Positions 10,235 through 64,000 of a stretch of DNA of 64,000 bases are shown one piece after another. Position numbers and translations under genes: made by a program. Below the pieces are notes generated by a model. The model was not told the DNA's origin and did no database searches. It saw only the letters and a program-made list of their open reading frames with translations. This DNA is from Thermodesulfobacteriota bacterium (lineage in GTDB: Bacteria; Desulfobacterota_D; UBA1144; Nemesobacterales; JAJCZQ01), in assembly GCA_965215275.1 (NCBI GenBank), contig OZ244044.1:1472001-1536000 (forward strand). Reading direction: 5' to 3'. The stretch's first letter is position 1; the number at the start of each line of letters is the position of its first letter.

Positions 10235-12283
10235 ATGAACATCTTATTTCGAATAATACCCCCCCCCTTCCCATCTAAGTCAGTAATTCCCTTTTTCTTT
10301 CTTCTGTGTTTTGTATCTATTGAGGCATATGGCCAGAGTAGTAATTGTAATGCCAATGCAAATATTGATGCTACGCTGACATTGGATGGAGGTAACAAAG
10401 TTGTGACCTTCCAAGCTAATGGAGGACTGAATTACTATCAGATAGACCTGACAGTCCCCGTTATCATAAATATAGATGGAATGGTCAATTCTACCACCTC
10501 CAATAACGTGCAAGCCAGTTTAGAGTTGTGTAACAGCAATGATGATCTGATAACAAGTGTAAGTGGCGGTGGCAGTGCAGATGTAGAATTGGATATTACA
10601 GCAGTTTACCTGATCCCGGGAACTTACTATATTGTTGTGAAAAGCAATGTAGCTGGAGCATCTGATGTTGAAGTTATAAAAGAAGCAGATGCATGTAGGA
10701 CTACTACCAGTTTCAATGATCCCTTATACGGCTGTCAGTGGCATCTGAAAAACACAGGACAGCTCGGGGATATAACTAGCTCTGGAGAAGATATAAACGT
10801 AGAAGGGGTGTGGGATGATAATGTATTCGGTGCTGGAATTAACGTGGCAGTGGTAGATGATGGTATGCAGACGGGTCATGAGGACCTTACTGATAATGTA
10901 AATACCAGCCTGAATCATGATTATTCAGGGAACAATGACGTATACGACCCTTCAAAAGCTCGTGGTACACGTGTATCGGGAGTTATAGCAGCAACAGGTG
11001 ATAACAGCCTTGGAGTAAGAGGCGCAGCACCCCAGGCAGGCATCTATAGTTATAACTTAGCTGGTAATTTAACTTCCGCTAACGCAAAGGATGCTATGAT
11101 CCGTAACAGAGATACAACGGCCGTATCCGTCAATAACTGGGGACCGGAGGACACGTCTGTTCTTATAGAGGCTTCATCAGAGTGGGAGGAAGGAGTGGGA
11201 ATGGGTATAAGTGAAGGGCTTGGTGGTAAAGGGGTATTTTACGTGTGGGCGACTGGAAACAGAGGTGACAACCGCGGTCAGGCTAATTTTGATGAATATT
11301 CCAACTACTACGCAGTAACTGCCGTATGTTCGGTAGATAGAGAAGGAAACAAAAGTTCTTTTTCAGAAGAGGGAGTAAATCTGTGGGTATGTGCTCCAGG
11401 TGAAGATATTACAACTACTGATAATAACGATGGATATATTTTTGATGCAAGTGGAACGGCATATTCAGCAGCGCAGGTTGCAGGTGTGGCGGCACTGATG
11501 AGAGAGGTAAACAGTGATCTTAGCTGGAGAGACCTTAAACTGATACTTGCAGCTTCAGCCCGTAAGAACGACGGTTCTGACACGGGCTGGGAGACAGGGG
11601 CACATAAATACGGTTCTGATACAGAAAGTTATAATTACAACCCTAAGTACGGTTTTGGTGTGGTAGATGCTGAAGCAGCAGTAGGGCTTGCTGAAAGCTG
11701 GACTAATGTTCCAAGGATGAGAACTCAGACCGCTTCTTCTGGAACTATTGATATGGCAATCCCCGACTACAATGACGCAACTTCAACAGACGGAGTACTT
11801 GTTTCCAGACTGACAATACCAGATACTTCTCTTTCTTTTACAGAGTTTGTAGAGGTAGAGCTTAATTTCTCTCACACATACTTACCAGACCTGAACATAC
11901 AGATAACCTCTCCTGACGGTACTGTGTCGCAACTTACTGAGATAGATTCAAACAGCTTTGGTTACACAGATAAAACTCATCGTTTTGGTTCAGCCAGGCA
12001 CCTTGGAGAAGACCCTGCTGGAGAATGGACTTTGAAAATATCTGACACTGTTTCTGACGATACAGGGACGTTACACTCGTGGAGCATTAAAGTCTATGGT
12101 CACAGTAAGGAAGATACAGTACGAAGACCAGGAACACCAGGTGCTGATTCAGGTGGAGGAGGATGTGCGGTCTCCGATCAGAGAGGCGTTATTCCTGATC
12201 TGCTCGGAGCAGTGGCATGTCTGATGCTTATACCTGTATCTGTAGTGATCAGAAGGAAGATAAGGTCTCATATAAAGATGTAA
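10235..12283 (+). CDS. S8/kexin-like pseudoprotease copy 1: signal peptide, PPC-like domain, S8, P domain, GGGGC-TM-RRK tail; in frame
   Basis: QWHL, VAVVDDG, RGTRVSG (His->Arg), SGTAYSAA (Ser->Ala), YGFG, FGSARHLGE P domain; C9 at 10259-10267; start at 10235 by homology to copy 3 (ATG 10223 overlaps the -10 box). Confidence 0.85.
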   Translation: MNILFRIIPPPFPSKSVIPFFFLLCFVSIEAYGQSSNCNANANIDATLTLDGGNKVVTFQANGGLNYYQIDLTVPVIINIDGMVNSTTSNNVQASLELCNSNDDLITSVSGGGSADVELDITAVYLIPGTYYIVVKSNVAGASDVEVIKEADACRTTTSFNDPLYGCQWHLKNTGQLGDITSSGEDINVEGVWDDNVFGAGINVAVVDDGMQTGHEDLTDNVNTSLNHDYSGNNDVYDPSKARGTRVSGVIAATGDNSLGVRGAAPQAGIYSYNLAGNLTSANAKDAMIRNRDTTAVSVNNWGPEDTSVLIEASSEWEEGVGMGISEGLGGKGVFYVWATGNRGDNRGQANFDEYSNYYAVTAVCSVDREGNKSSFSEEGVNLWVCAPGEDITTTDNNDGYIFDASGTAYSAAQVAGVAALMREVNSDLSWRDLKLILAASARKNDGSDTGWETGAHKYGSDTESYNYNPKYGFGVVDAEAAVGLAESWTNVPRMRTQTASSGTIDMAIPDYNDATSTDGVLVSRLTIPDTSLSFTEFVEVELNFSHTYLPDLNIQITSPDGTVSQLTEIDSNSFGYTDKTHRFGSARHLGEDPAGEWTLKISDTVSDDTGTLHSWSIKVYGHSKEDTVRRPGTPGADSGGGGCAVSDQRGVIPDLLGAVACLMLIPVSVVIRRKIRSHIKM

Positions 12284-12407
12284 CAATGCAGTCTCTTTCC
12301 AGAATGTTGAATTAATTAAGATCTTTCCCATCAAAATATCTGCTGGCTGCTTATGAGAGAAGGAACGGTATCTTTCTGTTAAAGTCCTTTTTTCCTTTGG
12401 TTTATAA

Positions 12408-12689
12408 TTATTTTGCCATCCCGGCATATGCAACCGGTCGGGTGTCTCCGAACGTCTTTACAAGTGTTTCAAGGAATTCTTCGGAATGCTCGGAGCAGAA
12501 AAAATAGGTTAGAACAGTGTTACCGGACTTGGTTACGCTTAATACCTGGTAGTGGCGGCTGCAAAGGTCTTTGTTGCACATTACACATTCTTTTATCGCC
12601 AGTCTTTCTCCTTCAAGAGTACATCTTTCCCCGTCCTCTCCTATGTTGTCACACTGATATACCTCAACGGATATTTTCCTTTTTGACAT
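12408..12689 (-). CDS. Small Cys/His-rich hypothetical protein, possibly zinc-binding
   Basis: CVMC, CSRH and CSEH motifs; AGGAG RBS upstream. Confidence 0.65.
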   Translation of the reverse strand: MSKRKISVEVYQCDNIGEDGERCTLEGERLAIKECVMCNKDLCSRHYQVLSVTKSGNTVLTYFFCSEHSEEFLETLVKTFGDTRPVAYAGMAK

Positions 12690-13100
12690 CTATTCTCTCC
12701 TTATAGTTTTATATACACTCCATTTTTTACATTAATAAGTATAGGAATTATAAAGATTGATTTACAAGAAATAAAATTTTTAATAATAAGCATTAGGAAA
12801 ATCAGAATATCCATAACGGATATAAATCTGTATCGGGTGGAGCAGTTAAAATGGGGAAAAGACTCCCGGTGGGTGCTATGGGTATTTTAAAATCAAAAGA
12901 ACAAGAGGAACTTTGCACTCAGAACGGTAAAGGTATTGTCGTCGGACGATCTTTATAGTTCTCACAAGCATATAAGATTGACGGCGATATGATCAGTCTG
13001 AATAACAGCGGTATTTAACTGATTTGCAATCCAACGAGATTTAGTAGACAGTATTACCCGCACAAATTATATTTTGTAAAATTTATTAAGCTATATAAGA

Positions 13101-14069: not shown

Positions 14070-14276
14070 ACTCATTTGACGGGTTTTAACGGTTGCGTTC
14101 CTGATGCTGTAAACTTAACACAGCAGGGAAGTTATCAGCGATTTTACCTGCCTGTTTCTTATAGACGTTGCCATCTGAATACCATCTGTTGTGAAGATTG
14201 ATTTTTCAGAAGTCGTACCGCTTGGTGTAGCAGAGAGGTTCTTGTTTCTATTAAAGGGAATTATATTTATACACGC

Positions 14277-14414
14277 TTGACATTCGTTCATAATACAAAG
14301 TAAAATGAAAGGGTTATGAGTATGAACGTATCTTTTAGAGTAATACGCCTTTTTAATGATAGTGAAAGTAAATCTTTCAAAGTGAAATACAGTTTAACTT
14401 ACCTTTTATTATAA
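14277..14414 (+). pseudogene. Orphan family promoter plus remnant 5' end of a copy-1/3-type gene
   Basis: TTGACA-18nt-TAAAAT at 14277-14306; ATG 14316 reads MSMNVSFRVI (compare MNISFRII of copy 3), then diverges and stops after 32 codons. Confidence 0.55.
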
Positions 14415-14437
14415 ACATGCATAGATATTGTTCATAC

Positions 14438-14466
14438 TTGACATTACGGCGGAACGGAAGTAAAAT
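14438..14466 (+). promoter_or_regulatory. Sigma70-type promoter of copy 2
   Basis: TTGACA-17nt-TAAAAT; ATG 9 nt downstream at 14476. Confidence 0.75.
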
Positions 14467-14561
14467 ATCGGCATCATGAAAAATCCAAACGTAAAAAAGC
14501 GTAGTTCTATTACCCCCCCCCGTGTATACCCGACCTTTCAGCTGTATACGGGTATCCTGCA

Positions 14562-17500
14562 ATGACAATGCTTAAGTTCATATCCCCCCCCCCGTCTAAG
14601 TCCATACTTCCCCTTGTCCTTTTCCTTCTGTGCGTAATCACCGTGGTTGCAAGTGGACAGGGCAGTGAAAAGGACCCGTTCTCCGAATGCAGGGGTATCA
14701 GTGCAGACGCGGAAGATCCGCTGTACGGATGTCAGTGGCATCTGAGGAACACTGGACAGCTTAGTTATTCCGGAAAGAGGACAACTGCGGGAGAGGATAT
14801 AAACGTGGAGGGAGTGTGGAACGACGGGATATCCGGTGCCGGGATCAATATAGCAGTGGCAGGTGACGGCGTCGACCTTTCCCATGAGGACCTTTCTGCG
14901 AACGTCCGTTCCGGACCGAACCACAGTTTTTCTGGAAAAAACAATTCCGGAAAGAACAGTTTTGAGAAAAACAATTCAGAAAGCGGTGATCTTTCCGATA
15001 GTTCATCCCTTACCGGAACGCGAGCAGCAGGAGTAATAGCAGCAACTGGATATAACGGACTGGGAGTAAGAGGAGTTGCACCTGGTGCTAGTATATACAG
15101 TAATGAGTTAACAGAAGATCTCAGTGAAACAGAAGCAATGGTGCGTAATAAAGAAATAACTGCAGTATCCGTTAACGACCGGGGATCTGAGGAGGGAGTT
15201 TTATTACAGGGGGCTTCGGCTGAGTGGGAAGAGGGAGTGGAAGAGGGTATAAGGGAAGGGTTTTACGGCAGGGGAATATTTTACGTCCTGGGAGCAGGGG
15301 ACGGACATGAGAGCGGAGATCAGGCTAATTTTTCTGAATATTCCAACTATTACGGTGTAACGGCGGTATGTTCAACTGACGGCTTTGGAAAGAAGAGTAT
15401 ATTTTCAGAAGAGGGAGTAAATCTCTGGGTATGTGCACCTGGTTCTGATATTGTGACCACTGATAACGACGACGGCTACGCCGTGGCTTCCGGAACATTT
15501 CTTTCAGCTTCACAGGTTGGAGGAGTGGCAGCACTGCTGAGAGAAATAAATGGAAACCTGAGCTGGAGGGATATAAAGCTTATACTTGCGGGTTCGGCAC
15601 GGCAGAACGATCTTTCTGACATGAGCTGGGAGACAGGAGCATTTAAATACGGTTCTGATACTGAAAGATATAATTATAACCCTAAGTATGGTTTTGGTGT
15701 GGTAGACGCGGAGGCGGCCGCAGAGCTTGCCGGAAGCTGGAAAGGAGTGGGAGAAATGAGGACCGTTACAGCTTCCTCGGATAATGAACTGACGATCCCT
15801 GATGGAGAAGGAGAGGCGGACGGGGTCCTTACCTCCAGACTTATGATTTCGGACCTGGAGGAAATATTTACGGAGTTCGTTGAGGTAGAACTCGTTCTCT
15901 CGTGTGACTGCCTGCAGGACCTCAATATACGGATAACCTCTCCTTCCGGGACAGTATCGGAACTTGTGCGGGAGTCTGCCAGTGAGTTTGTAAGGGGATC
16001 TTCGAATGAAGAAAACGACTGCGTCAGTTACCTGGGGAAAAAACATCGTTTCGGTTCGGCAAGACACCTCGGGGAAGACCCTTCCGGAGAATGGACCCTT
16101 AAGATATATAATACTGCTTCCGGAGATGAAGAAGATACAGAAAATACCGTTACCCTGCACTCATGGAGCATCAGGGTATACGGGCACGGGAAGGGGGATA
16201 CTTTAACGGACTTTGGCGGGGAGATCACTGCCAAGGCTTTAACTTTGGGTAATGTTCCTGGTGGTAGGCTGACCTGGACGCAACATAAGCTGGTAAACGC
16301 AAGGTTATTCGAGGCAGCCGGAGGCAGGCCGCCGTATACTTACAGTTTAGCTCCTTTACCTCCTGGATTGAATTTTAACGGAACCACCAGAATTATAAAC
16401 GGGAGACCGACCGCTGCAGGTGACACCGACGTTCAGTATACGGCAAGAGACGCAAATAACGATACGGCACGGAGTGACTTCGTTATAAGGATAACGGCGA
16501 ACGCCGCGCCGGTTTTTGGCAGCAAGACGGTTGCTGCTCAGGTGTACACGGCAAGGAAAGCAATAGAACCATTGGAACTTCCCGAGGCAACGGGAGGGGA
16601 TGGAACCTTGACTTACAATATAAGTGGTAACGTCAGGGGTATAGGGTTGAACTTTAACCGTAACACAAGGATACTGAGCGGAATGCCCACCAGTGTTACG
16701 CCTGGTATTACAGCCGTTTATACCGCCACTGACGCAGATGGAGATACTGCCGAACTGAGGTTCAATATACGGGTAAGACATCAGAACGACATACCGACCT
16801 TTGGCAGTCAGACGGTAGATGATCAGAATTGGGTTAACGGCAGTGCAGTAAGGCTAACGCTGCCTCGTGCAAGAAACGGGAACGGAACGTTAATTTACAG
16901 TTTAGGGCTTGCCGTTAACATGAATGCATTACTTGCCGGACTGGATTTTAACAGAAACACCAGAGTGTTAAGCGGAACGCTCAGGATACCCCCGGCGGCA
17001 ATACCTCCTGCTGGGATTACACACAGATATACGGTAACGGACAGTGATAACGATACTCATGAAAGTGATTCTGACAGTTTGACCTTCGGGATCACTGTAT
17101 CAGCGGACGCAATGCCGACCTTTAGCAGTGAGACGATAGATGATAAGGAATACATAGCAGGAAGTCAGATAAAGCCGGTAACGCTGCCAGTGGCAACATC
17201 GGGGAATACTCCGTTAACCTACGGTATAACCCCTGCTTTGCCTGATGGACTGGACTTTGATCCTGCTACCCGGGTGCTGAGCGGAACACCGACCACTGCG
17301 ATGTCTCAGACTACCTATACATATACAGTAACGGACGTAGATGACGACCCGGCTGAGTTAACGTTTGATATCACTGTATCAGCGGACGCAATGCCGACCT
17401 TCGGCGGTGCGACGATAGAAGACAGGACGACCGTTAACGGCGTTACGGCAGTAATGGAAACACTGCCTCTTGCAACAGGAGGGAACGGAACGCTGACTTA

Positions 17501-18140
17501 CAGTTTAACTGATGCCGGTTCAAATGCTTTGAATTTATTTGCCGGACTGGACTTTGATGAAAACACCCGGGTGCTGAGCGGAACACCCGATATCGGTTCA
17601 GCGTTCCTTGATCTGCTTCCCGTAACCGAGACCTATACGTGGATGGTAGCGGACGAAGATGAAGACATGGACGAGTTGACGTTCAGTATAATTATAGAAG
17701 CAGACAGCGAACCTGACCTCAGCGGTGAGACGATAGATGATCAGGTGTACACGGGGACCCCTGTAACTCTTCCTGAGGCAACGGGAGGGAACCCGCCGTT
17801 AAGATACAGTATAATGCCTCGTTTACCAGATGGATTGAGTTTTGATCCTGCTACCAGAAGGATAAGCGGGACACCGACTGCTGCAGCACCTGAGAATACT
17901 TACACGTACACGGTAACGGACAGCAATGACGACGTGGACGTGTTGACTTTCAGGCTCAGTGCAGTTCCGCCACGAGGACCGATGACGTCAGATACCGGTT
18001 CAGGCGGAGGTGGAGGAGGATGTGCCGTCTCGGATCAGAGCAGCGTTGCTTCTGATATCTTTGGAGCAGTGGCATTTCTGATGCTCATACCCGTGTCAGT
18101 ATTTATCAGAAGGAGAAGAAGACCTCATATAAAGACATAG
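14562..18140 (+). CDS. S8-like pseudoprotease copy 2 with six Ig-like (He_PIG-type) repeats and GGGGC-TM tail; probable true start 14476 is out of frame at the C9 tract
   Basis: IAVAGDG (Asp->Gly), TGTRAAG (His->Thr), SGTFLSAS (Ser->Phe); repeats of LPxATGG...LP.GL.F...TR.LSGTP; C9 at 14513-14521, C10 at 14584-14593. Confidence 0.85.
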   Translation: MTMLKFISPPPSKSILPLVLFLLCVITVVASGQGSEKDPFSECRGISADAEDPLYGCQWHLRNTGQLSYSGKRTTAGEDINVEGVWNDGISGAGINIAVAGDGVDLSHEDLSANVRSGPNHSFSGKNNSGKNSFEKNNSESGDLSDSSSLTGTRAAGVIAATGYNGLGVRGVAPGASIYSNELTEDLSETEAMVRNKEITAVSVNDRGSEEGVLLQGASAEWEEGVEEGIREGFYGRGIFYVLGAGDGHESGDQANFSEYSNYYGVTAVCSTDGFGKKSIFSEEGVNLWVCAPGSDIVTTDNDDGYAVASGTFLSASQVGGVAALLREINGNLSWRDIKLILAGSARQNDLSDMSWETGAFKYGSDTERYNYNPKYGFGVVDAEAAAELAGSWKGVGEMRTVTASSDNELTIPDGEGEADGVLTSRLMISDLEEIFTEFVEVELVLSCDCLQDLNIRITSPSGTVSELVRESASEFVRGSSNEENDCVSYLGKKHRFGSARHLGEDPSGEWTLKIYNTASGDEEDTENTVTLHSWSIRVYGHGKGDTLTDFGGEITAKALTLGNVPGGRLTWTQHKLVNARLFEAAGGRPPYTYSLAPLPPGLNFNGTTRIINGRPTAAGDTDVQYTARDANNDTARSDFVIRITANAAPVFGSKTVAAQVYTARKAIEPLELPEATGGDGTLTYNISGNVRGIGLNFNRNTRILSGMPTSVTPGITAVYTATDADGDTAELRFNIRVRHQNDIPTFGSQTVDDQNWVNGSAVRLTLPRARNGNGTLIYSLGLAVNMNALLAGLDFNRNTRVLSGTLRIPPAAIPPAGITHRYTVTDSDNDTHESDSDSLTFGITVSADAMPTFSSETIDDKEYIAGSQIKPVTLPVATSGNTPLTYGITPALPDGLDFDPATRVLSGTPTTAMSQTTYTYTVTDVDDDPAELTFDITVSADAMPTFGGATIEDRTTVNGVTAVMETLPLATGGNGTLTYSLTDAGSNALNLFAGLDFDENTRVLSGTPDIGSAFLDLLPVTETYTWMVADEDEDMDELTFSIIIEADSEPDLSGETIDDQVYTGTPVTLPEATGGNPPLRYSIMPRLPDGLSFDPATRRISGTPTAAAPENTYTYTVTDSNDDVDVLTFRLSAVPPRGPMTSDTGSGGGGGGCAVSDQSSVASDIFGAVAFLMLIPVSVFIRRRRRPHIKT

Positions 18141-18200: not shown

Positions 18201-18608
18201 GGGGGCTATATACAATGTTGCCCAAATTGTATATAATGGTGACAAGAGATTAAAACATAAGAACTTAACAAGATGAACAATCCTTCTACCCCCCCCCATC
18301 AAATACGCTGTTTTATGGTGATTGTTTAGATGTAATACAACAATGGTCAGAGGGTTTTGTTGACCTGTGCTACCTTGACCCACCGTTTAACTCTAAGACA
18401 ACTTACAATATCCTATTTGGGGAAAAAAGTAACAATAGAACTCAAGCCGTTGCTGTTAAAGATACATGGTCTTGGGACGATAAAGCACTTGAACGAGTAA
18501 GTAAGATAAAAAAAGCCGTAGGTCATGGTGCTCATCAGTCTATAACAGGATTACATTCAAAAAAGAATTGATGCTTTTTTATTTTGGGCAACATTGTATA
18601 TAGTCCCC
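18201..18608. mobile_element. MITE-like non-autonomous IS1595-type element (408 bp)
   Basis: 26-bp TIRs: GGGGGCTATATACAATGTTGCCCAAA (18201-18226) and the inverse of GGGGACTATATACAATGTTGCCCAAA (18583-18608), 1 mismatch; same GGGGACTATATAC end as the intact IS at 44018-47071; no clear TSD. Confidence 0.75.
18273..18571 (+). pseudogene. Truncated, frameshifted N6/N4 DNA methyltransferase (beta-class N-terminus)
   Basis: After C9 (18289-18297) one frame reads PSNTLFYGDCLDVIQQWSEGFVDLCYLDPPFNSKTTYNILF...KDTWSW; DPPF motif IV present, motif I absent; ATG 18273 is one C out of frame. Confidence 0.8.
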
Positions 18609-22437: not shown

Positions 22438-22467
22438 TTGACATTCGTTCAGGGTACAAAGTAAAAT
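22438..22467 (+). promoter_or_regulatory. Sigma70-type promoter of copy 3
   Basis: TTGACA-18nt-TAAAAT; ATG 9 nt downstream at 22477. Confidence 0.75.
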
Positions 22468-22476: not shown

Positions 22477-24195
22477 ATGAACATCTCATTTAGAATAATA
22501 CCCCCCCCATATAAGTCATTAATATCCTTTCTCCTTCTTCTGTGCCTTGTGTCCATTGAGGCATATGGACAGATCAATAACTGTGACACCAGTACTACCG
22601 GTTTCAATGATCCCTTATACGGCTGTCAGTGGCATCTGAAAAACACGGGACAGCTTGGGGCTGTAACTGCCTCTGGAGAAGATATAAACGTAGAAGGGGT
22701 CTGGGACGATAACAGGTTCGGTGCCGGAATTAACGTGGCGGTGGTGGATGACGGTATGCAGACGGGTCATGAGGACCTTTCTGATAATGTAAATAACAGC
22801 CTTAACCATGATTATTCAGGAGGCAGTGACGTATACGACCCTTCAAAAGCTCGCGGAACGCGTGTATCGGGAGTTATAGCAGCAGCGGGAGATAACGGTA
22901 TTGGAGCAAGAGGAGCGGCACCACGGGCAGGCATCTACAGTTATAACCTGGCCGGTAATTTAAACAGCGCTAACGCAAAGGACGCCATGACCCGTAACAG
23001 AGATACAACGGCTGTATCCGTCAACAACTGGGGACCGAATGACCTGCCTCTTCTCAGGGAGGCTTCATCAGAGTGGGAAGAGGGAGTGGAGACGGGTATA
23101 AGTGAAGGGTTTGGTGGTAAGGGGGTATTTTATGTATGGGCGGCCGGGGACGGAGATAAAAGGGCAGATCAGGCTAATTTTGATGAGTATTCCAACTACT
23201 ACGCAGTAACCACCGTATGTTCGGTGGATGGAGAAGGAAACAAGAGCTCTTTTTCAGAGGAGGGAGTAAATCTGTGGGTATGTGCTCCAGGTGAAGATAT
23301 TACAACTACTGACAATAACGATGGATATATTTTTGATGCGAGTGGAACGGCATATTCAGCAGCGCAGGTTGCAGGTGTGGCGGCACTGATGAGAGAGGTA
23401 AACGGAGACCTTGGCTGGAGGGACATAAAGCTTATACTTGCAGCTTCAGCCCGTAAGAACGACGGTTCCGACACGAACTGGGAGACGGGAGCACGGAAAT
23501 ACGGTTCTGATACAGAGAGTTATAATTACAATCCTAGGTACGGTTTCGGCGTGGCAGATGCCGACGCGGCAGTAAAGCTTGCTGAAAGCTGGACTAACGT
23601 TCCAGGGATGAGAACTCAGACCGTTTCCTCGGGAACTGTTGATATGGAAATCCCCATCCACAGCAATGGAGCAGACGGAGAAGTTACTGCCAGACTGACC
23701 ATACCGGATAATGAGTTTTTTACAGAATTTGTAGAGATAGAACTTGATTCCACTTACGGTTACTTTCCAAGTTTAGCTATACAGATAGCGTCCCCTGACG
23801 GTACTGTGTCTGAACTTACCGAGGAGTATTATGCAGGAGCTTTCTCAATTATAAATACCACTCCACTCACTGCAAGCGACTTTATTTACACCGACAGAAC
23901 TCATCGTTTTGGTTCAGCCAGACACCTTGGAGAAGACCCTGCCGGAGAATGGACCTTGAAGATAACTAACACTGATCTGTTTTCTTCAGGCACAGCAACT
24001 TTACACTCGTGGAGCATTAAAGTCTATGGTCACAGTAAGGAAGATACAGTTAGTGATACGTTTGGAGGAGGATGTGTGCTCTCAGATCAGAACGAAGCTG
24101 TTTCTGATCTGCTCACAGCAGTGGCATCTCTGATGCTTATACCCTTATCAGCAGCGATCAGAAAGAAGGTAAGGTCTCATATAAACACCTGGTAA
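22477..24195 (+). CDS. S8-like pseudoprotease copy 3 (minimal form: signal, S8, P domain, GGGC-TM tail); in frame
   Basis: VAVVDDG, RGTRVSG (His->Arg), AAGDG (oxyanion Asn->Asp), SGTAYSAA (Ser->Ala); C8 at 22501-22508. Confidence 0.85.
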   Translation: MNISFRIIPPPYKSLISFLLLLCLVSIEAYGQINNCDTSTTGFNDPLYGCQWHLKNTGQLGAVTASGEDINVEGVWDDNRFGAGINVAVVDDGMQTGHEDLSDNVNNSLNHDYSGGSDVYDPSKARGTRVSGVIAAAGDNGIGARGAAPRAGIYSYNLAGNLNSANAKDAMTRNRDTTAVSVNNWGPNDLPLLREASSEWEEGVETGISEGFGGKGVFYVWAAGDGDKRADQANFDEYSNYYAVTTVCSVDGEGNKSSFSEEGVNLWVCAPGEDITTTDNNDGYIFDASGTAYSAAQVAGVAALMREVNGDLGWRDIKLILAASARKNDGSDTNWETGARKYGSDTESYNYNPRYGFGVADADAAVKLAESWTNVPGMRTQTVSSGTVDMEIPIHSNGADGEVTARLTIPDNEFFTEFVEIELDSTYGYFPSLAIQIASPDGTVSELTEEYYAGAFSIINTTPLTASDFIYTDRTHRFGSARHLGEDPAGEWTLKITNTDLFSSGTATLHSWSIKVYGHSKEDTVSDTFGGGCVLSDQNEAVSDLLTAVASLMLIPLSAAIRKKVRSHINTW

Positions 24196-24495: not shown

Positions 24496-24525
24496 TTGAC
24501 ATTCGTTCATAATACGAAGTAAAAT
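24496..24525 (+). promoter_or_regulatory. Sigma70-type promoter of copy 4
   Basis: TTGACA-18nt-TAAAAT; ATG 9 nt downstream at 24535. Confidence 0.75.
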
Positions 24526-24644
24526 ATCAGTGTTATGAAAAATTTCATGAAAAATTCAAACATAAAAACAAAAACACGTAGTTCCATTACCCCCCCCCGT
24601 GTATACCTGACCTTTCAGCCTGGTATAAGTGTTTTTTAAGAACA

Positions 24645-27600
24645 ATGTTTAAGATAATACCCCCCCCATCTAAGTCATTACTAACTTTAGTCTTTATTCT
24701 TCTGTGTATAATGGTAATAGCTGCAAAAGGGCAGAGCAGCCTGGAAGAAACATTATCTGAATGCAGAGGTAACAGTGCAGACGTGGAAGATCCGTTATAC
24801 GGATGTCAGTGGCATCTGAAGAACACGGGGCAGTTTATTTATTCAGGAAAGAGAATAACATCAGGAGAAGATATAAACGTAGAGGGAGTGTGGAACGAAG
24901 ACGTATACGGTTCTGGAATTAACGTAGCAATAGTAAGTGACGGTATCGACCTTTCACATGAGGACCTTTCTGCAAACGTCCGTTCCGGACTGAACTATGA
25001 TCTGTCTGACAGTTCATCTTTTAGTGGGACACGAGCGGCAGGAGTTATTGCAGCAACTGGATATAACGGACTGGGAGTAAGAGGAACAGCACCGGGTGCG
25101 AGTATATACAGTTACAGGTTATCCGGTGATCTCAGTGAAGCGGACGCGGTGGTCCGTAATAAGGAAATAACCGCAGTATCGGTTAACGGCCGGGGATCTG
25201 AGGACGGAGCTTTTTTTCAGGAGGCTTCATCTTCCTGGGAAGAAGGAGTGGAACTTGGAATAAGTAAAGGGTTTTATGGAAAAGGTGTGTTTTACGTCCG
25301 GGGAGCAGGGGACGGGCATGAAAGCGGAGATCAGGCTAATTTTAATGAATATTCCAGCTATTACGGAGTAACAGCCGTTTGTTCAACTGACGGTTATGGA
25401 AAAAAGAGTATTTTTTCAGAAGAGGGAGTAAATCTATGGGTATGTGCACCTGGTTCTGATATTGTAACCACAGATAACAACAACGATTACGTTGTAACTT
25501 CCGGAACATTTCTATCAGCTTCACAGGTCGGAGGAGTGGCAGCACTGCTGAGAGAGATAAACGGAGATCTGAGCTGGAGGGATATAAAGCTTATACTTGC
25601 GGGTTCAGCACGGCAGAACGATATTTTTGACCTTAGCTGGGAGACTGGAGCGGTAAAATACGGTTCTGACGTGGAAAGATATAATTATAATCCTAAGTAT
25701 GGTTTTGGCGTGGTAGACGCAGAAGCAGCTGCAGAACTTGCAGGAAGCTGGAAAGGCGTTGGAGAAATGAGGACCGTTACCGCCTTTTCAGATAATGAGA
25801 TAACAATTCCTTATGGAGAAGGAAATGGAGAAGGAGAGGCAGACGGGGTACTTGTCTCCAGACTTATGATCCCGGACGTGGAGGAAATATTTACGGAATT
25901 CGTTGAAGTTGAACTTGTTCTCTCGTGTGACTGCTTACAGGACCTCAATATAAAGCTAACCTCTCCTTCCGGGACAGTGTCTGAACTTGTAAGGGAGTTT
26001 TCAGGGGAGGAAGAAGACGCTGATATCAGTTACCTGAGAAGAACACATCGTTTCGGGTCGGCAAGACACCTCGGAGAAGACCCTGCCGGAGAATGGAACC
26101 TTAAAATATCCGATACTGCTTCCGGAGATGAAGAAGATACAGAAAACACTGTTACCTTACACTCATGGAGCATTAAGGTATACGGGCATGTTTTTTTACA
26201 GGATTTTGGCAAGGAGATCATTACCAAGGCTTTCAGCTTGGGAAGTATCTCTAATAAAACTTACAGAGAAGGAGTTCAGATAACACCATTAGTGCTGCCT
26301 GAGGCAACTGGAACTAATCTGTCAATTACTTACAGTTTAAGTCCTGCCCCACCTGCCGGATTGACCTTTGACAAAACCACCCGAACGATAAGCGGAACAC
26401 CAACTGCTGTAGGCAGGACAAGGCATAATTATAGGGCAAGCATTCCTGGCCAACAACTCAATAGAAACTTTCATATCACGGTAGAAAATAACCCACCCAC
26501 CTTCGGCAGTGAGACTATCCCAAAGAAGAGATATATTCAAGGGACAAATGTAGGTCTTCCAGTAACGCTGCCTGCTGCTACCGGAGGAAATGGAACTTTA
26601 AATTACAGTTTAACCCCTTCATTACCAACTGGATTGGAATTTAATCCTGCTACCCGAGTGATAAGTGGAACTCCAACTGATATTATACAAACTCCTGGTC
26701 GACTTTATACATATAAGGTAACGGACAGTGATGGAGATATAGATAGTTTGAGTTTCCGTATTGAAATATTCAGGGACCAAACGCCAACTTTTAGTGGTGT
26801 GATGGTAGATGATCAGGTGTATACAGCAGGGGTTCAGATAACACCATTAGAGCTGCCTAGGTCAATATTAGGGAATAGCCCATCACACAGTATTACTCCT
26901 GAATTACCTGATGGATTGATTATTGAGACAGAGACGGGCGGTGACGGTGGAATGAGAAGAATAATCATCATACGCGGAACACCAACTACAGCAATGCCTG
27001 AGACTGAGTATACATGGAGAGTAAGAGACACAGATGGAGATACGGACGAGTTAACGTTCAGTATTACTGTATTAGCAGAACCAAACACAGAACCAACCTT
27101 CGGCAGTGAAACTATAGATAACAAGGTGTATATAAACGGAGAGGCAGTAATGGAAACACTGCCTGAAGCAACGTCAGGGAATGCACCATTAACTTACAGT
27201 TTAACTAATATTGGTTCAACTGCTTTGACTTTAGCCGTGGACTTTGATAAGAACACCAGAGTGTTAAGTGGAACACCCAATGTTAATGTACACCTACTTC
27301 CTATAACTCGTGCATATACATATAAAGTAACAGACAATGATGGAGATACAGCAGAGATAACGTTCAGTATAACAATAGAAGAAGACAGCGAGCCGGACTT
27401 CAGCGTGACGACGATAGAAGATCAGGTGTACATGGGGAGATCAATAAGGTTGCCGGTAGCAACGGGAGGGAATGCACCGTTAGTATACAGTATAACGCCT
27501 CCCTTACCTCCTGGGTTGAGATTGGACAGAGACACAGGGGTAATAAGCGGGACGCCCGCGAGTGCGTCGTCTGAGAGGACCTACACGTACACGGTAATGG

Positions 27601-27842
27601 ACAGGGACGGAGACATTAAAGAGTTGACCTTCAGGTTCAGTGCAGAGGTTCCTTCTACTCCAGGACCAGGACCAACAAGAACGTCAGGTAGTGATCCAGG
27701 CGGAGGTGGAGGAGGATGTGCCGTCTCGGATCAGAGCAGCGCCGTTTCTGATATTCCTGGAGTAATGGCATGTCTGATACTTATACCCGTGTCGGTATTG
27801 ATCAGAAGGAAGGGAAGAGCTCGGATAAGGACCTGGCAATGA
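24645..27842 (+). CDS. S8-like pseudoprotease copy 4 with five Ig-like repeats and GGGGC-TM tail; probable true start 24535 is out of frame at the C9 tract
   Basis: VAIVSDG (Asp->Ser), SGTRAAG (His->Ser), SGTFLSAS (Ser->Phe); C9 at 24590-24598, C8 at 24660-24667. Confidence 0.85.
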   Translation: MFKIIPPPSKSLLTLVFILLCIMVIAAKGQSSLEETLSECRGNSADVEDPLYGCQWHLKNTGQFIYSGKRITSGEDINVEGVWNEDVYGSGINVAIVSDGIDLSHEDLSANVRSGLNYDLSDSSSFSGTRAAGVIAATGYNGLGVRGTAPGASIYSYRLSGDLSEADAVVRNKEITAVSVNGRGSEDGAFFQEASSSWEEGVELGISKGFYGKGVFYVRGAGDGHESGDQANFNEYSSYYGVTAVCSTDGYGKKSIFSEEGVNLWVCAPGSDIVTTDNNNDYVVTSGTFLSASQVGGVAALLREINGDLSWRDIKLILAGSARQNDIFDLSWETGAVKYGSDVERYNYNPKYGFGVVDAEAAAELAGSWKGVGEMRTVTAFSDNEITIPYGEGNGEGEADGVLVSRLMIPDVEEIFTEFVEVELVLSCDCLQDLNIKLTSPSGTVSELVREFSGEEEDADISYLRRTHRFGSARHLGEDPAGEWNLKISDTASGDEEDTENTVTLHSWSIKVYGHVFLQDFGKEIITKAFSLGSISNKTYREGVQITPLVLPEATGTNLSITYSLSPAPPAGLTFDKTTRTISGTPTAVGRTRHNYRASIPGQQLNRNFHITVENNPPTFGSETIPKKRYIQGTNVGLPVTLPAATGGNGTLNYSLTPSLPTGLEFNPATRVISGTPTDIIQTPGRLYTYKVTDSDGDIDSLSFRIEIFRDQTPTFSGVMVDDQVYTAGVQITPLELPRSILGNSPSHSITPELPDGLIIETETGGDGGMRRIIIIRGTPTTAMPETEYTWRVRDTDGDTDELTFSITVLAEPNTEPTFGSETIDNKVYINGEAVMETLPEATSGNAPLTYSLTNIGSTALTLAVDFDKNTRVLSGTPNVNVHLLPITRAYTYKVTDNDGDTAEITFSITIEEDSEPDFSVTTIEDQVYMGRSIRLPVATGGNAPLVYSITPPLPPGLRLDRDTGVISGTPASASSERTYTYTVMDRDGDIKELTFRFSAEVPSTPGPGPTRTSGSDPGGGGGGCAVSDQSSAVSDIPGVMACLILIPVSVLIRRKGRARIRTWQ

Positions 27843-33310: not shown

Positions 33311-33339
33311 TTGACATTACACTAAAGCAGAAGTAAGAT
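33311..33339 (+). promoter_or_regulatory. Sigma70-type promoter of copy 5
   Basis: TTGACA-17nt-TAAGAT; ATG 9 nt downstream at 33349. Confidence 0.7.
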
Positions 33340-33348: not shown

Positions 33349-35933
33349 ATGAAAGATTTCATAAGAGGATCAAATGTAAAAACACGTAGTTCCATACCTC
33401 CCCCCCCCCCCGTGTATACCTTGCCTTTCAGTAGGGTACGGGTACACTGTAACGACAATGCTTAGGTTCATATCCCCCCCCCCCATATAAGTTAGTTCTT
33501 TCCCTGGTCTTTTTTCTTCTGTGCGTAATACCCGCAGCCGCGATGGTCCGTAACGGGGAAACGGCGTCGGTGTCCGTTGACGACCGGGGACAGGAGGACG
33601 GACCTTTTCTTCAGGAGGCTTCGGCTTCGTGGGAAGAAGGAGTGGAAGCAGGAATAAGAGAAGGGTTTTATGGAAAAGGAACGTTTTACGTCCGGGGAGC
33701 AGGGGACGGACATGAAAAAGGAGATCAGGCTAATTTTTCTGAATATTCCAATTACTACGGAGTAACTGCCGTTTGTTCAACGGACGGTTTTGGAAAAAAG
33801 AGTTTCTTTTCAGAAGAGGGAGTAAACCTGTGGGTGTGTGCACCTGGTTCTGATATCGTGACCACAGATAACAACAACGGTTACGTTGTAACTTCCGGAA
33901 CGTTCCTGTCAGCTTCACAGGTTGCAGGAGTGGCAGCACTGCTGAGAGAGGTTAACGGAGAACTGAGCTGGAGGGATATAAAGCTTATACTTGCGGGTTC
34001 AGCACGGCAGAACGATTTTTTTGACCCTGGCTGGGAGACTGGAGCTGTTAAATACGGTTCTGACGTGGAAAGATATAATTATAGTCCCAGGTATGGTTTT
34101 GGCGTGGTGGACGCAGAAGCAGCCGCAGAACTTGCAAAAAGCTGGAAAGGCGTAGGAGAAATGAGGACCATTACAGCTTCTTCAGATAATGAACTGACGA
34201 TCCCTGATGGAGAAGAAAATGGAGATGGAGAAGCGGACGGGGTCCTTGTCTCCGGACTTGTGATACCGGACGTGGAGGAAATATTTACGGAATTCGTTGA
34301 AGTTGAACTTGTTTTTTCTCATGACCGCTTGCAGGACCTTGATATACAGATAACCTCTCCTTCCGGGACAGTATCGGAACTTGTAAGGGAGTTTTCAGGG
34401 GAAGAAGACACCAGCGTCAGTTACCTGAGAAGAACACATCGTTTCGGGTCGGCAAGACACCTTGGGGAAGCCCCTTCCGGAGAATGGATTTTAAAAATAT
34501 CTGATACTGCTTCCGGAGATGGAGAAGATAGAGAAAATACGGGGACCTTGCACTCCTGGAACATTAAGGTATACGGGCACGGGAAGGGGGATCTTTTAAC
34601 GGACCCAGTCAGTGAGACGGGTCCTAAACATCATTATCTAAGTTTTGGTGGTCTGACAGAAGAAGATCATGTATTTACAGTAGGAGTTATGATAAGTCCA
34701 TTTCGTCCACCTCAGGTAGTTGATTCAGGGGCTGGAGCAGTAAGATACAGTTTAACTCCTGCTTTACCTGCCGGATTGATGTTTAATGTTGTTACCCTAC
34801 AGGTAACAGGAACGCCAACTACTCCGATGTCTGATACTGAGTACACATATACTGCTATGGACAGAGGTGGGGATAGTGATAGTATAACGTTCAATATCAG
34901 GGTAAAGGGTATAGCTGGTGCTCCGAGTTTTGGGAATGAGTCAATCCCTGGTCAGATATACATTCAAGGGACAACGGCAAACCTTCCGGTAACACTGCCT
35001 TCTGCAACATCAGGGGATACTCCGTTAACTTACAGTATAGCACCTGAGTTACCAGCTGGATTGGACTTTGCTTCTGATACCCGAGTAATAAGTGGCACAC
35101 CTTCTACTGCAACGTCTGAGGCTGATTACACATATACGGTTACTGATATAGATGGAGACACTGTTGAGTTAATGTTCGGGATCACTATATTAGCAGACGT
35201 AATGCCAACCTTTAGCGGTGAGACAATAGATGATAAGGAGTACATAGCAGGGAGTCTAATAACACCAGTAACGCTGCCTGCAGCAACTGGAGGTAATACT
35301 CCATTAACTTACAGTTTAACTCCTGCTTTACCAACTGGATTGAACTTTAACACAGCTACCCGAGTAATAAGTGGAACACCCACTACTGCAATGAGCAGGA
35401 ATACTTATACATATACGGTAACAGACATAAATGGAGATACTGTTAAGTTAATGTTCGGGATCACTATATTAGCTGACAGCATGCCAGACTTCGGCGGTGA
35501 GACAATAGATGATAAGGAGTACATAGCAGGGAGTCTAATAACACCAGTAACGCTGCCTGCAGCAACTGGAGGTAATGCTCCATTAACTTACAGTTTAACT
35601 CCTGCTTTACCAACTGGATTGAACTTTAATCCTGATACCCGAGTGATAAGTGGCACACCTTCTACTGCAACGTCTGAGGCTGATTACACATATACGGTTA
35701 CTGATATAGATGGAGACACGGATGAGAGAACGTTCAGTATAATAATAGAGGTTTCTTCTGCTCCGCCACCACAAGGACCAAGAACGTCAGGTACTGATTC
35801 AGGTGGAGGAGGATGTGCCGTCTCCGGTCAGAGCGGCGTTGTTCCTGATCTGCTCGGAGCAGTGGCGTGTCTGATACTTATACCCGTGTCTGTAATTATC
35901 AGAAGGAATAGAATAGCTCAGATAAAGACTTAG
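33349..35933 (+). CDS. S8-like pseudoprotease copy 5, frameshifted at both poly-C tracts, with an in-frame deletion of the N-terminal half of the S8 domain and four Ig-like repeats
   Basis: C12 at 33400-33411 and C11 at 33474-33484; removing one C from each joins ATG 33349, the signal peptide (KLVLSLVFFLLCVIPAAA) and the track ORF 33543..35933. Confidence 0.75.
35074..35719 (+). repeat. 279-bp-period near-identical Ig-domain repeats in copy 5
   Basis: 35220-35350 recurs at 35499-35629 (+279); 35074-35161 recurs at 35632-35719 (+558). Confidence 0.9.
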
Positions 35934-61495: not shown

Positions 61496-61569
61496 ATCAG
61501 ATACTGCTGATGAATGGTCCGTGTATCCTGAATATCTTTATCATTGAAAAACAGAGAAAGAAGTTATAC

Positions 61570-61598
61570 TTGACATTACATCAGAACGGAAGTAAAAT
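61570..61598 (+). promoter_or_regulatory. Sigma70-type promoter of copy 6
   Basis: TTGACA-17nt-TAAAAT. Confidence 0.75.
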
Positions 61599-61608
61599 AT
61601 AAAAATGT

Positions 61609-64000
61609 ATGAAAAACATGATGGACTCTATCCCCCCCCCCCCCGTCAATATAGTAGTTTAACGGGCAGTTCCCGCCGGAACGGCAGGAACCTTGTACTT
61701 TCCCTTGTCCTTTTTCTTCTGTGCATAATGATCACTGTTGCAGAGGGACAGGACAGCGTAAATGATCCGTTCTCCGAATGCAGGGTTATCAGTGCAGACG
61801 CGGAAGATCCGCTGTACGGATGTCAGTGGCATCTGAAGAACACGGGGCAGCTTGGTTTTTCCGGAAAAGCAGTAACAGCAGGAGAAGATATAAACGTAGA
61901 GGGAGTGTGGAACGAAGACGTATATGGTTCTGGAATTAACGTAGCAATAGTAAGTGACGGTATTGACCTTTCACATGAGGACCTTTCTGCTAAGGTCCGT
62001 TCCGGACTGAACTGGAGTTATTTTGAAAGAAATAATTCTGAAGAGAACAGTTCTGAAAAATATAATTCAGAAAGAGATGATCATTCAGACGGTTCATCCT
62101 TTACCGGAACACGAGCGGCAGGAGTAATTGCAGCAACTGGATATAACGGACTGGGAGTAAGAGGAACAGCACCTGGTGCGAGTATATACAGTTACAGGTT
62201 ATCCGGTGATCTCAGTGAAGCTGACGCAATGGTCCGTAATAAAGAAATAACCGCTGTATCGGTTAACGGCCGGGTATCTGAGGACGGAGCTTTTTTTCAG
62301 GAGGCTTCATCTGTCTGGGAAGAAGGATTGGATACGGGAATAAGGGAAGGGTTTTATGGGAAAGGTGTGTTTTACGTCTGGGGAGCAGGGGACGGTCACG
62401 AGAATAACGATCAGGCTAATTTTAATGAATATTCCAGCTATTACGGAGTAACAGCCGTTTGTTCAACGGACGGCTTTGGAAAGAAGAGTATATTTTCAGA
62501 AGAGGGAGTAAATCTCTGGGTATGTGCACCTGGTTCTGATATTGTGACCACAGATAACAACAACGATTACGTTGTAACATCCGGAACTGTCCTTTCAGCT
62601 TCACAGGTTGGAGGAGTGGCTGCACTGCTGAGAGAGGTTAATGGAAATCTGAGCTGGAGGGATATAAAGCTTATACTTGCGGGTTCAGCAAGGCAGAACG
62701 ACGTTTCTGACATGAGCTGGGAGACTGGAGCGGTTAAATACGGTTCTGACGTGGAAAGATATAATTATAATCCTAAGTATGGTTTTGGCGTGGTAGACGC
62801 AGAAGCAGCCGCAGAGCTTGCCGGAAGCTGGAAAGGCATCGGAGAGATGAGGACCATTACAGCTTCTTCCGATAATGAACTGACAATTCCTGATGGAGAA
62901 GGAGAAGCAGATGGAATACTTACCTCCACACTTGTGATACCGGACGTGGAGGAAATATTTACGGAATTCGTTGAGGTAGAACTTGTTTTTTCTCATGACC
63001 GCTTGCAGGACCTTGATATAAAAATAACCTCTCCTTCCGGGACAGTTTCTGAACTTGTCCGGGAATTTTCAGGTGAGGAAGAAGACGCTGAGATCAGTTA
63101 TGTAAGAAGAACACATCGTTTCGGGTCGGCTAAACACCTCGGAGAAGACCCTTCCGGTGAATGGACCCTTGATATATCCGATACTGCTTCCGGAGATGAA
63201 GCAGATGAAGAAAATACTTTTACCTTACACTCCTGGAGCATTAAGGTATACGGGAATTTTTATCAAGGACCTGGCAGGGAGATAACTACTAAAGCTTTAA
63301 ATTGGGGCGGACAGACAGTTCAGGATCAGGTGTACAGAGTAGGAACTCAGATAGCACCGTTACAGCTGCCTGAGGCGACCGGGGCAGAAGGAATAACGTA
63401 CAGTATGACACCTGATTTACCTGCTGGGCTGGAGTTTAACGATACCACCCGGGTTATAAGCGGAACCCCAACTAAATCGCAGTCTAATGAACGTTATCAA
63501 ATTGTTGCCAGAGACGAAAATGGAAACGTGAAGGGTTTAGCGTTCCATATAAGGGTAAGGTTCCGTAACTCCACAATACCGAGTTTCAGCGATACCATCC
63601 CGGATCAGAACTACGTAACGGGGAGAGAAATAACGCCACTGGTGTTCCCTAGTGCAACGGGAGGGGATGGTCAGTTAAGGTACACTTTTAACGGCACTTT
63701 AACTAACTTACCAAATGGATTGAGACTTACCAGTGATCCGTTCAGGATAAGAGGAACACCAGGTAGTGGTAGTGCGGGGACAAGTACCTGGCAATATACC
63801 GCTACTGACTCAGACGGGGATACTGCTACACTTGAGTTCAGGATAAGGATAAAAGCTGCAGCTGACGTTCCGAGCTTCGGCGGTCAGATGATAGATGATA
63901 AGTTTTATACGGCAATGGTTCAAATATCACCATTCACGCTACCTCTTGCAACGCAAGGAACTGGAATTACACTCAGGTTAACCCCTAATTTACCTGATGG
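61609..64000 (+). CDS. S8-like pseudoprotease copy 6 (runs off the window; absent from the ORF track), at least three Ig-like repeats
   Basis: LVLSLVLFLLCIM signal, DPLYGCQWHL, VAIVSDG, TGTRAAG, SGTVLSAS (Ser->Val), P domain; C13 at 61632-61644 puts the homologous ATG 61609 out of frame, though ATG 61605 is in frame. Confidence 0.85.

What the first reader, a model, noticed from the sequence alone, without database searches (positions are those of the whole stretch)
10259..61644. All ten long poly-C tracts lie near gene starts and set the reading frame
Seen: C9 10259, C9 14513, C10 14584, C9 18289, C8 22501, C9 24590, C8 24660, C12 33400, C11 33474, C13 61632. I saw no C>=8 or G>=8 run in housekeeping genes. 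Nine are in the pseudoprotease genes and one is in the MTase fragment; all are C on the coding strand. From the promoter-proximal ATG, copies 1 and 3 are ON. Copies 2, 4 and 6 need +1 C, and copy 5 needs -1 C at each tract. The corrected frames have no stops. Inference: slipped-strand phase variation. Alternatives are transcriptional slippage or sequencing error.
Basis: partly seen in the sequence, partly recalled or inferred. Interest (0 to 1): 0.88.

Follow-up and report, generated by a model that had tools for sequence, protein, structure and literature searches.

The report
Poly-C switches on fifty surface genes
An uncultured bacterium with a 2-million-base genome carries 139 long runs of C or G, most of which sit at the front of 50 copies of a catalytically broken protease gene and hold them out of frame, so the runs likely act as random on/off switches of the kind known from pathogens, here at unusual scale and not yet seen switching within a population.

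Summary
All ten tracts are real and set the frame as described. Two corrections: copy 6 also has an in-frame ATG (61605), and the methylase fragment stays truncated after correction. Public short-read contigs reproduce four tested tracts exactly, so these are not assembly errors.

The window is a sample of a genome-wide system in a likely Dadabacteria genome with 139 C/G runs of 8 or more and no run of 7. Seventy-eight runs sit at the 5' ends of 50 of 57 kexin-like paralogs; most others lie in DNA methylase, TPR and glycan-modifying genes. Only 4 of 48 scored paralogs are in frame from the conserved start, two of them here. Twenty-eight carry two tracts in series, from a duplicated promoter-start module. 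All 7 paralogs without a 5' tract keep the catalytic His and Ser; 49 of 50 with one do not.

A G14 tract outside the window reads 14, 13, 13 and 12 across the assembly and three runs, and only 12 is in frame. The four window tracts were invariant. Verdict: slipped-strand phase variation, a known mechanism, at notable scale; switching itself is unshown. The scan noted this family earlier elsewhere in this genome (e1-1509725).

The parts
10195..10224 (+). sigma70-type promoter of copy 1 (TTGACA-18-TAAAAT); likely near-leaderless start at 10235
   Evidence: consensus match only
10223..12283 (+). copy 1: S8 + P-domain pseudoprotease (site residues D/R/N/A), signal-like N-terminus, Gly-run-Cys/TM/basic tail; in frame (ON)
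10259..10267 (+). C9 tract, copy 1, in frame
   Evidence: not bridged by a listed contig
14277..14306 (+). extra upstream promoter copy followed by a decayed start without a tract
14438..14466 (+). promoter of copy 2 (TTGACA-17-TAAAAT); ATG1 at 14476
14513..14521 (+). C9 first tract of copy 2; gives a 29-codon leader, +1 C fuses it to the main frame
   Evidence: bridged without gaps in X1 and X3
14584..14593 (+). C10 second tract of copy 2; in frame from ATG2
   Evidence: bridged without gaps in X1 and X3
14562..18140 (+). copy 2 main frame: S8 (G/T/D/F) + P + He_PIG Ig repeats + tail
18273..18571 (+). truncated N6/N4 DNA methylase 5' fragment; 18 codons as is, 99 with +1 C
18289..18297 (+). 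C9 tract, methylase fragment, out of frame
   Evidence: bridged without gaps in X1, X2, X3
22438..22467 (+). promoter of copy 3 (TTGACA-18-TAAAAT)
22477..24195 (+). copy 3: S8 (D/R/D/A against kexin D/H/N/S) + P + tail; ON
22501..22508 (+). C8 tract, copy 3, in frame
   Evidence: same length in X1, X2, X3 and X5
24496..24525 (+). promoter of copy 4; ATG1 at 24535
24590..24598 (+). C9 first tract of copy 4; 34-codon leader stops 5 nt before ATG2
24660..24667 (+). C8 second tract of copy 4; in frame from ATG2 (24645)
24645..27842 (+). copy 4 main frame: S8 (S/S/D/F) + P + Ig repeats + tail
33311..33339 (+). promoter of copy 5 (TTGACA-17-TAAGAT); ATG1 33349, ATG2 33458
33400..33411 (+). C12 first tract of copy 5, out of frame (-1 needed)
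   Evidence: not checked against reads
33474..33484 (+). C11 second tract of copy 5, out of frame (-1 needed)
   Evidence: not checked against reads
33486..35933 (+). copy 5 main frame; the N-terminal part of the S8 domain is missing
61570..61598 (+). promoter of copy 6 (TTGACA-17-TAAAAT)
61632..61644 (+). C13 tract, copy 6; in frame from ATG 61605, +1 needed from ATG 61609
   Evidence: not checked against reads
61605..64000 (+). copy 6 (S/T/D/V); its 1,276-codon open frame runs past the window

Best explanation
The poly-C runs set the reading frame of a family of catalytically broken, kexin-like proteins that are predicted to be surface-anchored, and they likely switch each gene on or off by slipping one base during DNA replication, with most copies off at any time. 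Shown: tract positions, frames, the length spectrum, loss of catalytic residues, and one length difference between samples. Inferred: near-leaderless transcription from the sigma70-type promoter, with the start 8-11 nt after the -10 box. Inferred: C9 is the length that mutation favours and is usually the OFF length. Inferred: in the 28 two-tract genes both tracts must be in frame from the first ATG, which makes ON rare. Inferred: cells differ in which few paralogs they display. The same device likely gates DNA methylase/restriction, TPR and glycan-modifying genes.
For: (1) Length spectrum in G000: C/G runs of 5: 787, 6: 78, 7: 0, 8: 6, 9: 68, 10: 32, 11: 18, 12 or more: 15. About 8 runs of 7 and fewer than 1 of 8 or more are expected from the 5-to-6 decline. 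C. jejuni switch tracts also centre on G9/G10, because G8 gains and G11+ loses bases (PMC8355987, passages). (2) Gene classes: 78 of 139 tracts are at the 5' ends of 50 of 57 paralogs. The other 61 are mostly in or beside TPR, N6/N4 methylase, type ISP, Eco57I, SAM-methyltransferase, sulfotransferase and glycosyltransferase frames (69 selected frames scanned). (3) Near-identical paralogs differ in length at the same site: the first tract is 9-13 across 28 genes. (4) At a unique locus (G000:C1:1405020) the assembly has G14, runs X2 and X4 have 13, and X5 (another study) has 12, with no other letters changed on those contigs. Only 12 or 15 is in frame. (5) Independent contigs reproduce four window tracts, two of them out of frame. 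(6) Both shift directions are needed: at the last tract of 48 genes, 25 need -1, 15 need +1 and 8 are in frame. (7) OFF excess: 6 of 46 single-tract coding cases are in frame against 1/3 expected (p=0.003; paralogs not independent). (8) Relatives use G-runs in promoter spacers: 15 of 31 tracts seen in G011 (from its first 30 of 130) and 6 of 22 in G001, against 0.3% or less with shuffled flanks.
Against: No within-population mixture was seen; only contigs were available, and they drop rare alleles. All four window tracts tested had the same length in every run that bridged them, including C8 at 22501 in the other-study run X5. The ON state of paralog C1:1336543 is kept in a protein from another assembly at 96% identity (P0008). 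The G12 allele rests on one contig of depth 5.5, and long G runs are error-prone. The OFF bias is not universal: 4 of 8 TPR genes are in frame at their internal tract. mutS and mutL are intact, unlike C. jejuni, which should lower slip rates. After an A, 63 of 91 runs are C9, but after a T only 4 of 44 are; this fits selection against ON but also fits A-to-C substitutions persisting in slowly changing tracts. Which ATG is used is untested.
Confidence: 0.78

Rival explanations
1. The tracts are fixed in DNA and give a low, steady output of every paralog through RNA-polymerase slippage or ribosomal frameshifting on the C run.
For: The lower limit of 8-9 is close to the length of the RNA:DNA hybrid (recalled). 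The tested window tracts were invariant across runs. Most genes are out of frame. The effect of such repeats on transcription is described as little studied (PMC1088944, passage).
Against: Both +1 and -1 are needed, so no single programmed ribosomal shift rescues them. Transcriptional slippage is attributed mainly to A/T runs (PMC5084427, passage). In G011 and G001 many runs lie in promoter spacers, upstream of the predicted transcript, where only DNA length can matter. One locus differs in DNA between runs.
Confidence: 0.08
2. The tracts are or were switches, but most paralogs are now effectively silent or decaying, locked OFF and spread by duplication and gene conversion.
For: 49 of 50 tract-bearing paralogs lack the catalytic His, the Ser or both. 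Copy 5 is internally deleted. The window methylase and several look-alikes are short fragments. 27 of 139 tracts look interrupted.
Against: Behind the tracts the frames stay open for 475-1,576 codons, and 52 of 57 keep the C-terminal tag. Long-dead genes would collect stops. The ON copies also lack the triad.
Confidence: 0.07
3. In two-tract genes translation starts at the second ATG, so only the second tract is an on/off switch and the first tunes expression through a leader peptide or a second promoter.
For: The segment between the tracts is a decayed promoter copy, intact as TTGACC-17-TACAAT in C1:206429. In copy 4 the C9 leader stops 5 nt before ATG2, and 14 of 28 genes have the first tract in the +1-needed phase. 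ATG2 is homologous to the start of single-tract genes.
Against: The second promoter is degenerate in most copies (for example CTGACC..TATTTT). No clear ribosome-binding site precedes ATG2 (by eye). Even so, only 5 of 28 would be ON. This changes the logic but not the slippage mechanism.
Confidence: 0.25
4. The frameshifts are long-read consensus errors in poly-proline-coding stretches.
For: The assembly is a single contig. The assembly's G14 reads 13 in two runs of the best-matching study, and no contig resolves C26.
Against: Out-of-frame C9 tracts at 14513 and 18289 are reproduced without gaps by independent contigs, 18289 at depth about 640 in X2. Long frames outside the tracts are intact.
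Confidence: 0.02

Closest known systems
Campylobacter jejuni poly-G/C contingency loci (including the type IIG R-M gene cj0031)
   Same: In-gene G/C homopolymers that set the frame; modal length 9-10; targets are surface, glycan-modifying and methylase genes (PMC8355987, passages).
   Different: 18-39 genes per C. jejuni strain, over 50 in two other species and over 80 in one genome, against 139 tracts in 2.0 Mb here. C. jejuni lacks mismatch repair, while mutS and mutL are intact here. Here over half the tracts serve one paralog family, often two per gene.
Neisseria opa family and the meningococcal phase-variable gene set
   Same: A multigene surface family in which each copy has its own frameshift repeat in the signal-peptide region (opa details recalled, not from a call). 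Similar overall scale: 115 genes in N. meningitidis (PMC5084427, title and passages).
   Different: Opa uses a pentamer repeat in about 4-11 outer-membrane barrel genes (recalled). Here it is a C homopolymer in 50 pseudoprotease genes with a C-terminal anchor, 28 with two tracts in series.
Chlamydia pneumoniae Cpn1054/ppp poly-C gene family
   Same: A lineage-specific paralog family with 5' poly-C tracts (recalled; PMC4489044 passages only list CPn_1054 as variable).
   Different: Unrelated proteins, a far smaller family (recalled), and a human pathogen.
Kexin/furin-type S8 proteases; non-triad subtilases such as C. difficile CspC
   Same: S8 + P-domain sequence (kexin 2id4, E 2.5e-41). Weak hits to the CspC_non_triad model, far below cut-off.
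   Different: The triad is lost stepwise within one genome, and the proteins add Ig stalks and a Cys-containing tail. The closest outside relatives (Chloroflexota MAGs, 44-48%) keep D/H/N/S and show no run of 8 or more in the fetched loci.
MYXO-CTERM / Synerg-CTERM / JDVT-CTERM sorting signals with Rce1-like myxosortases
   Same: Invariant Cys, then a TM-like segment, then a basic cluster. The genome's one Rce1-like gene over cut-off lies directly upstream of a family member, the adjacency seen in JDVT-CTERM (10.1101/2023.06.07.544157, passages).
   Different: Neither the tails nor the enzyme reach any NCBIfam cut-off.

Membership tests
Slipped-strand phase variation (SSR contingency loci) | Simple repeat whose length sets the frame or promoter spacing | tested here: met
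Slipped-strand phase variation (SSR contingency loci) | Long tracts over-represented and concentrated in surface, glycan and R-M genes | tested here: met
   a few lie beside ordinary genes
Slipped-strand phase variation (SSR contingency loci) | Length differs between strains or samples at the same locus | tested here: inconclusive
   14/13/13/12 at C1:1405020; four window tracts invariant
Slipped-strand phase variation (SSR contingency loci) | High-frequency reversible switching within a population | not testable with these tools
   all listed holders are kept as contigs
Slipped-strand phase variation (SSR contingency loci) | Expression follows tract length | not testable with these tools
   needs RNA or protein data
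Programmed +1 ribosomal frameshift at CCC codons | All sites need the same shift | tested here: not met
   25 need -1 and 15 need +1; 7 and 16 among other genes
Programmed transcriptional slippage | RNA more variable than DNA at the run; usually A/T runs | not testable with these tools
   the runs are C/G; no A/T run exceeds 9
Active kexin-type S8 protease | Asp-His-Ser triad | tested here: not met
   window copies D/R/A, G/T/F, D/R/A, S/S/F, -/-/F, S/T/V; complete triad in 7 of 57 paralogs
MYXO-CTERM-type sorting signal | Cys motif + TM segment + basic cluster at the C-terminus | tested here: met
   pattern in 52 of 57
MYXO-CTERM-type sorting signal | Score over a curated model's cut-off; cognate sortase | tested here: not met
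   best 16.5 of 22.5 bits (Synerg-CTERM) and 15.5 of 20 (MYXO-CTERM); enzyme 65 of 100 (Mrt_core)

The most novel reading that the evidence does not exclude
A dedicated antigenic-variation system in an uncultured, probably host-associated Dadabacterium. A surface protease lost its catalytic triad, gained a default-OFF poly-C switch, and expanded to 50 copies (the whole 57-gene family is 9% of the genome). The newest clade added a second tract in series as an AND gate, so each cell shows a rare, random handful of dead-protease adhesins or decoys on a new Cys-CTERM anchor. Related genomes reached the same scale with promoter-spacer G runs on other surface families.
Probability: 0.35. Interest if true: 0.75.

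Novelty: new variant of a known kind. Interest (0 to 1): 0.5.

Why it matters
Homopolymer phase variation is mostly studied in pathogens facing antibodies. Here 139 tracts occur in a 2-Mb uncultured genome with mismatch-repair genes, and two genomes of another family in the same order have 130 and 113. If switching is confirmed, this gives a testable case of which pressure (phage, predators, or an invertebrate host's innate defences) can maintain a large variable surface repertoire, and of serial tracts as a way to make expression rare. It also warns that gene callers truncate these proteins and lose their signal peptides.

Tried and rejected
No RNA holder was listed, so expression is untested. 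A motif scan of metagenome contigs gave 2 chance hits with no tract. The family was not found with this query in G001-G004 (same genus or family; G001 is 80% complete in 190 contigs), and hits in other genomes of the order were distant, at 25-42%. Only 1 of G001's 22 tracts has a matching G000 tract (C9 against C13, methylase), too divergent to count as strain polymorphism. Cluster-member look-up could not be made, so alleles in other assemblies were judged from representatives only. P0003, 95% identical to copy 1, starts internally, which would fit an OFF allele, but the same gene caller also skipped an in-frame ATG2 in copy 4 (1043 against 1065 aa), so I do not count it. Paralog cross-mapping makes the +C/+CC rows at 24589 and 24659 uninformative. 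An antisense promoter across the family tracts is a weak match only (1 good and 14 weak of 78). No leading/lagging-strand rule fits the tracts. No exosortase or rhomboid was found. The tree is the quick version only. No structure was predicted. Literature: 'Dadabacteria' + 'phase variation' gave 0 papers; 'phase variation' + 'homopolymer' + 'sponge' + 'symbiont' gave 1 unrelated paper; 'pseudoprotease' + 'subtilisin' + 'phase variation' gave 0. These cover open-licence text only, and no supplements were read.
Full report
Observation. The ten runs are present exactly as listed, and the window has no other C or G run longer than 5. Thirty order-4 Markov simulations gave 2 such runs in total. Nine runs lie at the 5' ends of six genes with S8 and P domains, four of them with He_PIG Ig repeats. 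The tenth lies in a methylase fragment 90% identical to a paralog that hits PF01555. Copy 6 is, however, open from ATG 61605. The methylase ends after 99 codons even when corrected, and copy 5 lacks part of its S8 domain.

Organism. The window is G000:C1:1472001-1536000 of a single 1.99-Mb contig, 99.87% complete. The best-scoring named CysS homolog is labelled Candidatus Dadabacteria (74%); most other named hits, at 62-65%, carry that label or Thermodesulfobacteriota. A host-associated life is my inference, not a result.

Genome-wide picture. G000 has 139 C/G runs of 8 or more and none of 7. Counts are 787, 78, 0, 6, 68, 32, 18, 6, 5, 2, 1, 1 for lengths 5, 6, 7, 8, 9, 10, 11, 12, 13, 14, 17 and 26; the chance of no 7-run from the 5-to-6 decline is about 4e-4. 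No A/T run exceeds 9. tblastn finds 57 S8 paralogs whose open frames cover 8.8% of the genome. Fifty carry 5' tracts, 22 with one and 28 with two, which accounts for 78 runs. For the other 61 I scanned 69 selected adjacent frames. Hits were TPR proteins (8 tracts), N6/N4, type ISP, Eco57I and EcoRI-type methylases, SAM methyltransferases, three sulfotransferases and glycosyltransferases; 19 frames had no hit, and a few tracts lie beside ordinary genes. mutS (868-codon frame) and mutL (617) are intact.

Anatomy of the switch. Forty-eight of the 50 genes have TTGAC[A/C/T]-17/18-TA[AG][AG][AG]T with a start codon 8-11 nt behind it, which implies near-leaderless mRNA (consensus match only). The tract follows 4-17 codons later and encodes a proline run in front of the hydrophobic signal-like segment. 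In two-tract genes the stretch between the tracts is a decayed second copy of the promoter-start module, intact in C1:206429. The two-tract layout therefore most simply arose by duplication of that module. From the conserved start, 4 of the 48 are fully in frame: window copies 1 and 3, C1:1336543 and C1:1028816. Of the two unscored genes, C1:753823 is in frame. At the last tract 8 of 48 are in frame, 25 need -1 and 15 need +1. Among other coding tracts with an ATG within 55 nt, 3 of 26 are in frame; this tally is automatic and includes some internal ATGs. Single-tract cases together give 6 of 46 (p=0.003 against 1/3). Where C9 would be ON, only 4 of 16 genes have C9, against 20 of 32 elsewhere (Fisher p=0.03). 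Paralogs are kin, so these p-values overstate. Against a general rule, 4 of 8 TPR genes are in frame.

The proteins. Alignment to kexin shows His to Arg and Ser to Ala in copy 3. Across the family, all 7 paralogs without a 5' tract keep His and Ser (6 with the full D/H/N/S set), while 49 of 50 with a tract have lost one or both. On a quick tree with midpoint root, six of the seven tract-less copies lie outside a clade of 49 tract-bearing ones (support 99), and 25 of the 28 two-tract genes fall in the most decayed subclade. Outside relatives in Chloroflexota MAGs keep the triad and show no run of 8 or more in the fetched loci. This order of events is suggested, not tested with a proper root. 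Fifty-two of 57 end in a Gly-run-Cys, TM-like, basic tail. It resembles MYXO- and Synerg-CTERM below cut-off, and the genome's one Rce1-like gene over cut-off sits directly upstream of a family member (compare 10.1101/2023.06.07.544157, passages). Surface anchoring is therefore predicted.

Read evidence. Fourteen public runs from 9 studies hold part of the stretch, 5 of them at least half; all are contigs. On window 9900-25300, contigs bridge 14513 and 14584 (X1, X3), 18289 (X1, X2, X3) and 22501 (X1, X2, X3, X5) with no gap (the piece table was cut). This rules out assembly error there but shows no variation, and X1-X4 may include the source sample. At the unique locus C1:1405020 the G14 reads 13 in X2 and X4 and 12 in X5, with identical flanks, while X6 breaks there; the nearby C26 breaks contigs in all four runs. 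Only 12 or 15 G's join the ATG to the 212-codon frame. This is one locus, and the 12 rests on depth 5.5.

Relatives. Runs of 9 or more number 133 in G000, 130 in G011, 113 in G025, 43 in G005 and 36 in G021; the other 36 of 41 genomes have 0-28. G011 and G025 have only 15 and 16 runs of exactly 7. In G011, 15 of 31 inspected tracts are G runs inside TTGAC[AT]..TA[AG]AAT promoters with 14-16 nt spacers, shorter than the usual 17, again suggesting default OFF. G001 has 6 of 22 such tracts and G000 only 2 of 139. The order thus uses the same device in different ways.

Mechanism and comparison. The best reading is replication slippage (0.78). The spectrum matches C. jejuni switch tracts (PMC8355987, passages). 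Both shift directions occur, promoter-spacer tracts in relatives cannot work by recoding, and one locus varies in DNA. Rivals are fixed-DNA recoding (0.08), a decaying silent repertoire (0.07) and assembly error (0.02). Initiation at the second ATG (0.25) is compatible with slippage and only changes the logic. The system works like Campylobacter contingency loci and, in its multigene design, like Neisseria opa (recalled). It meets the sequence criteria for phase variation, but reversible switching was not testable.

Novelty. The mechanism is textbook. What is unusual is the scale, the concentration on one pseudoprotease family, the serial tracts, the OFF bias and the link to catalytic loss. 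I found no paper on phase variation in Dadabacteria. Earlier notes of this scan had flagged this family (about 30 copies) and two single tracts in this genome, and a promoter tract in another Dadabacteria genome; I reached the family count and the promoter-spacer result before seeing the respective notes. Interest 0.5.

Noticed in passing
G000:C1 whole contig: 43 of 57 paralogs and 109 of 139 C runs lie on the + strand in both replichores, so orientation does not follow replication direction. Unexplained; it may reflect avoidance of inversions between paralogs.
   Followed up: partly
L119:2807-3451 (G000:C1:680806-681450, - strand): The genome's one Rce1/CPBP protease over cut-off lies directly upstream of a family member; candidate sortase for an undescribed Gly-run-Cys CTERM tag.
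   Followed up: partly
G011 loci L063-L088: A repeated promoter cassette with a G9-10 spacer run, a GGAGG site and a conserved short N-terminus; in L083 it precedes a lipoprotein-like frame with collagen-like Gly-X-Y repeats. A second large switch family.
   Followed up: partly
G000:C1:94069, 1295437, 1301357: G9-10 runs extend a GGAG ribosome-binding-like site 5 nt before the ATG of three related 430-470 aa lipoprotein-like genes; possible tuning of translation.
   Followed up: no
window 14584-14604, 24660-24678 and paralogs: The bases after the last tract (ATCTAAGTCA) resemble the reverse complement of G011's promoter cassette; the coding tract may descend from an inverted promoter module. 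Weak match only.
   Followed up: partly
G000:C1:518332, 605571, 668426: Three paralogs without a 5' tract have internal tracts: G13 splits the S8 domain; C9 and C17 are in frame.
   Followed up: partly
G000:C1:384592, 496990, 734754, 899109, 1001504, 1401695; window 18273-18571: Several short, decayed methylase-like 5' fragments keep a start-proximal C run.
   Followed up: no
window 44255-46993: Low-GC island (30-36%): IS1595-family transposase, an adenine-methylase-like gene and an unclassified 200-aa gene, probably a restriction-modification pair.
   Followed up: no
window 61291-61602: Short frame that resembles, by eye, the C-terminus of the IS1595 transposase at 46013-46993, just upstream of copy 6's promoter.
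   Followed up: no
window 30368-33162: NADH dehydrogenase subunit genes (nuoJ- and nuoL-like) end just before copy 5, so copy 5 may interrupt a nuo gene cluster.
   Followed up: no
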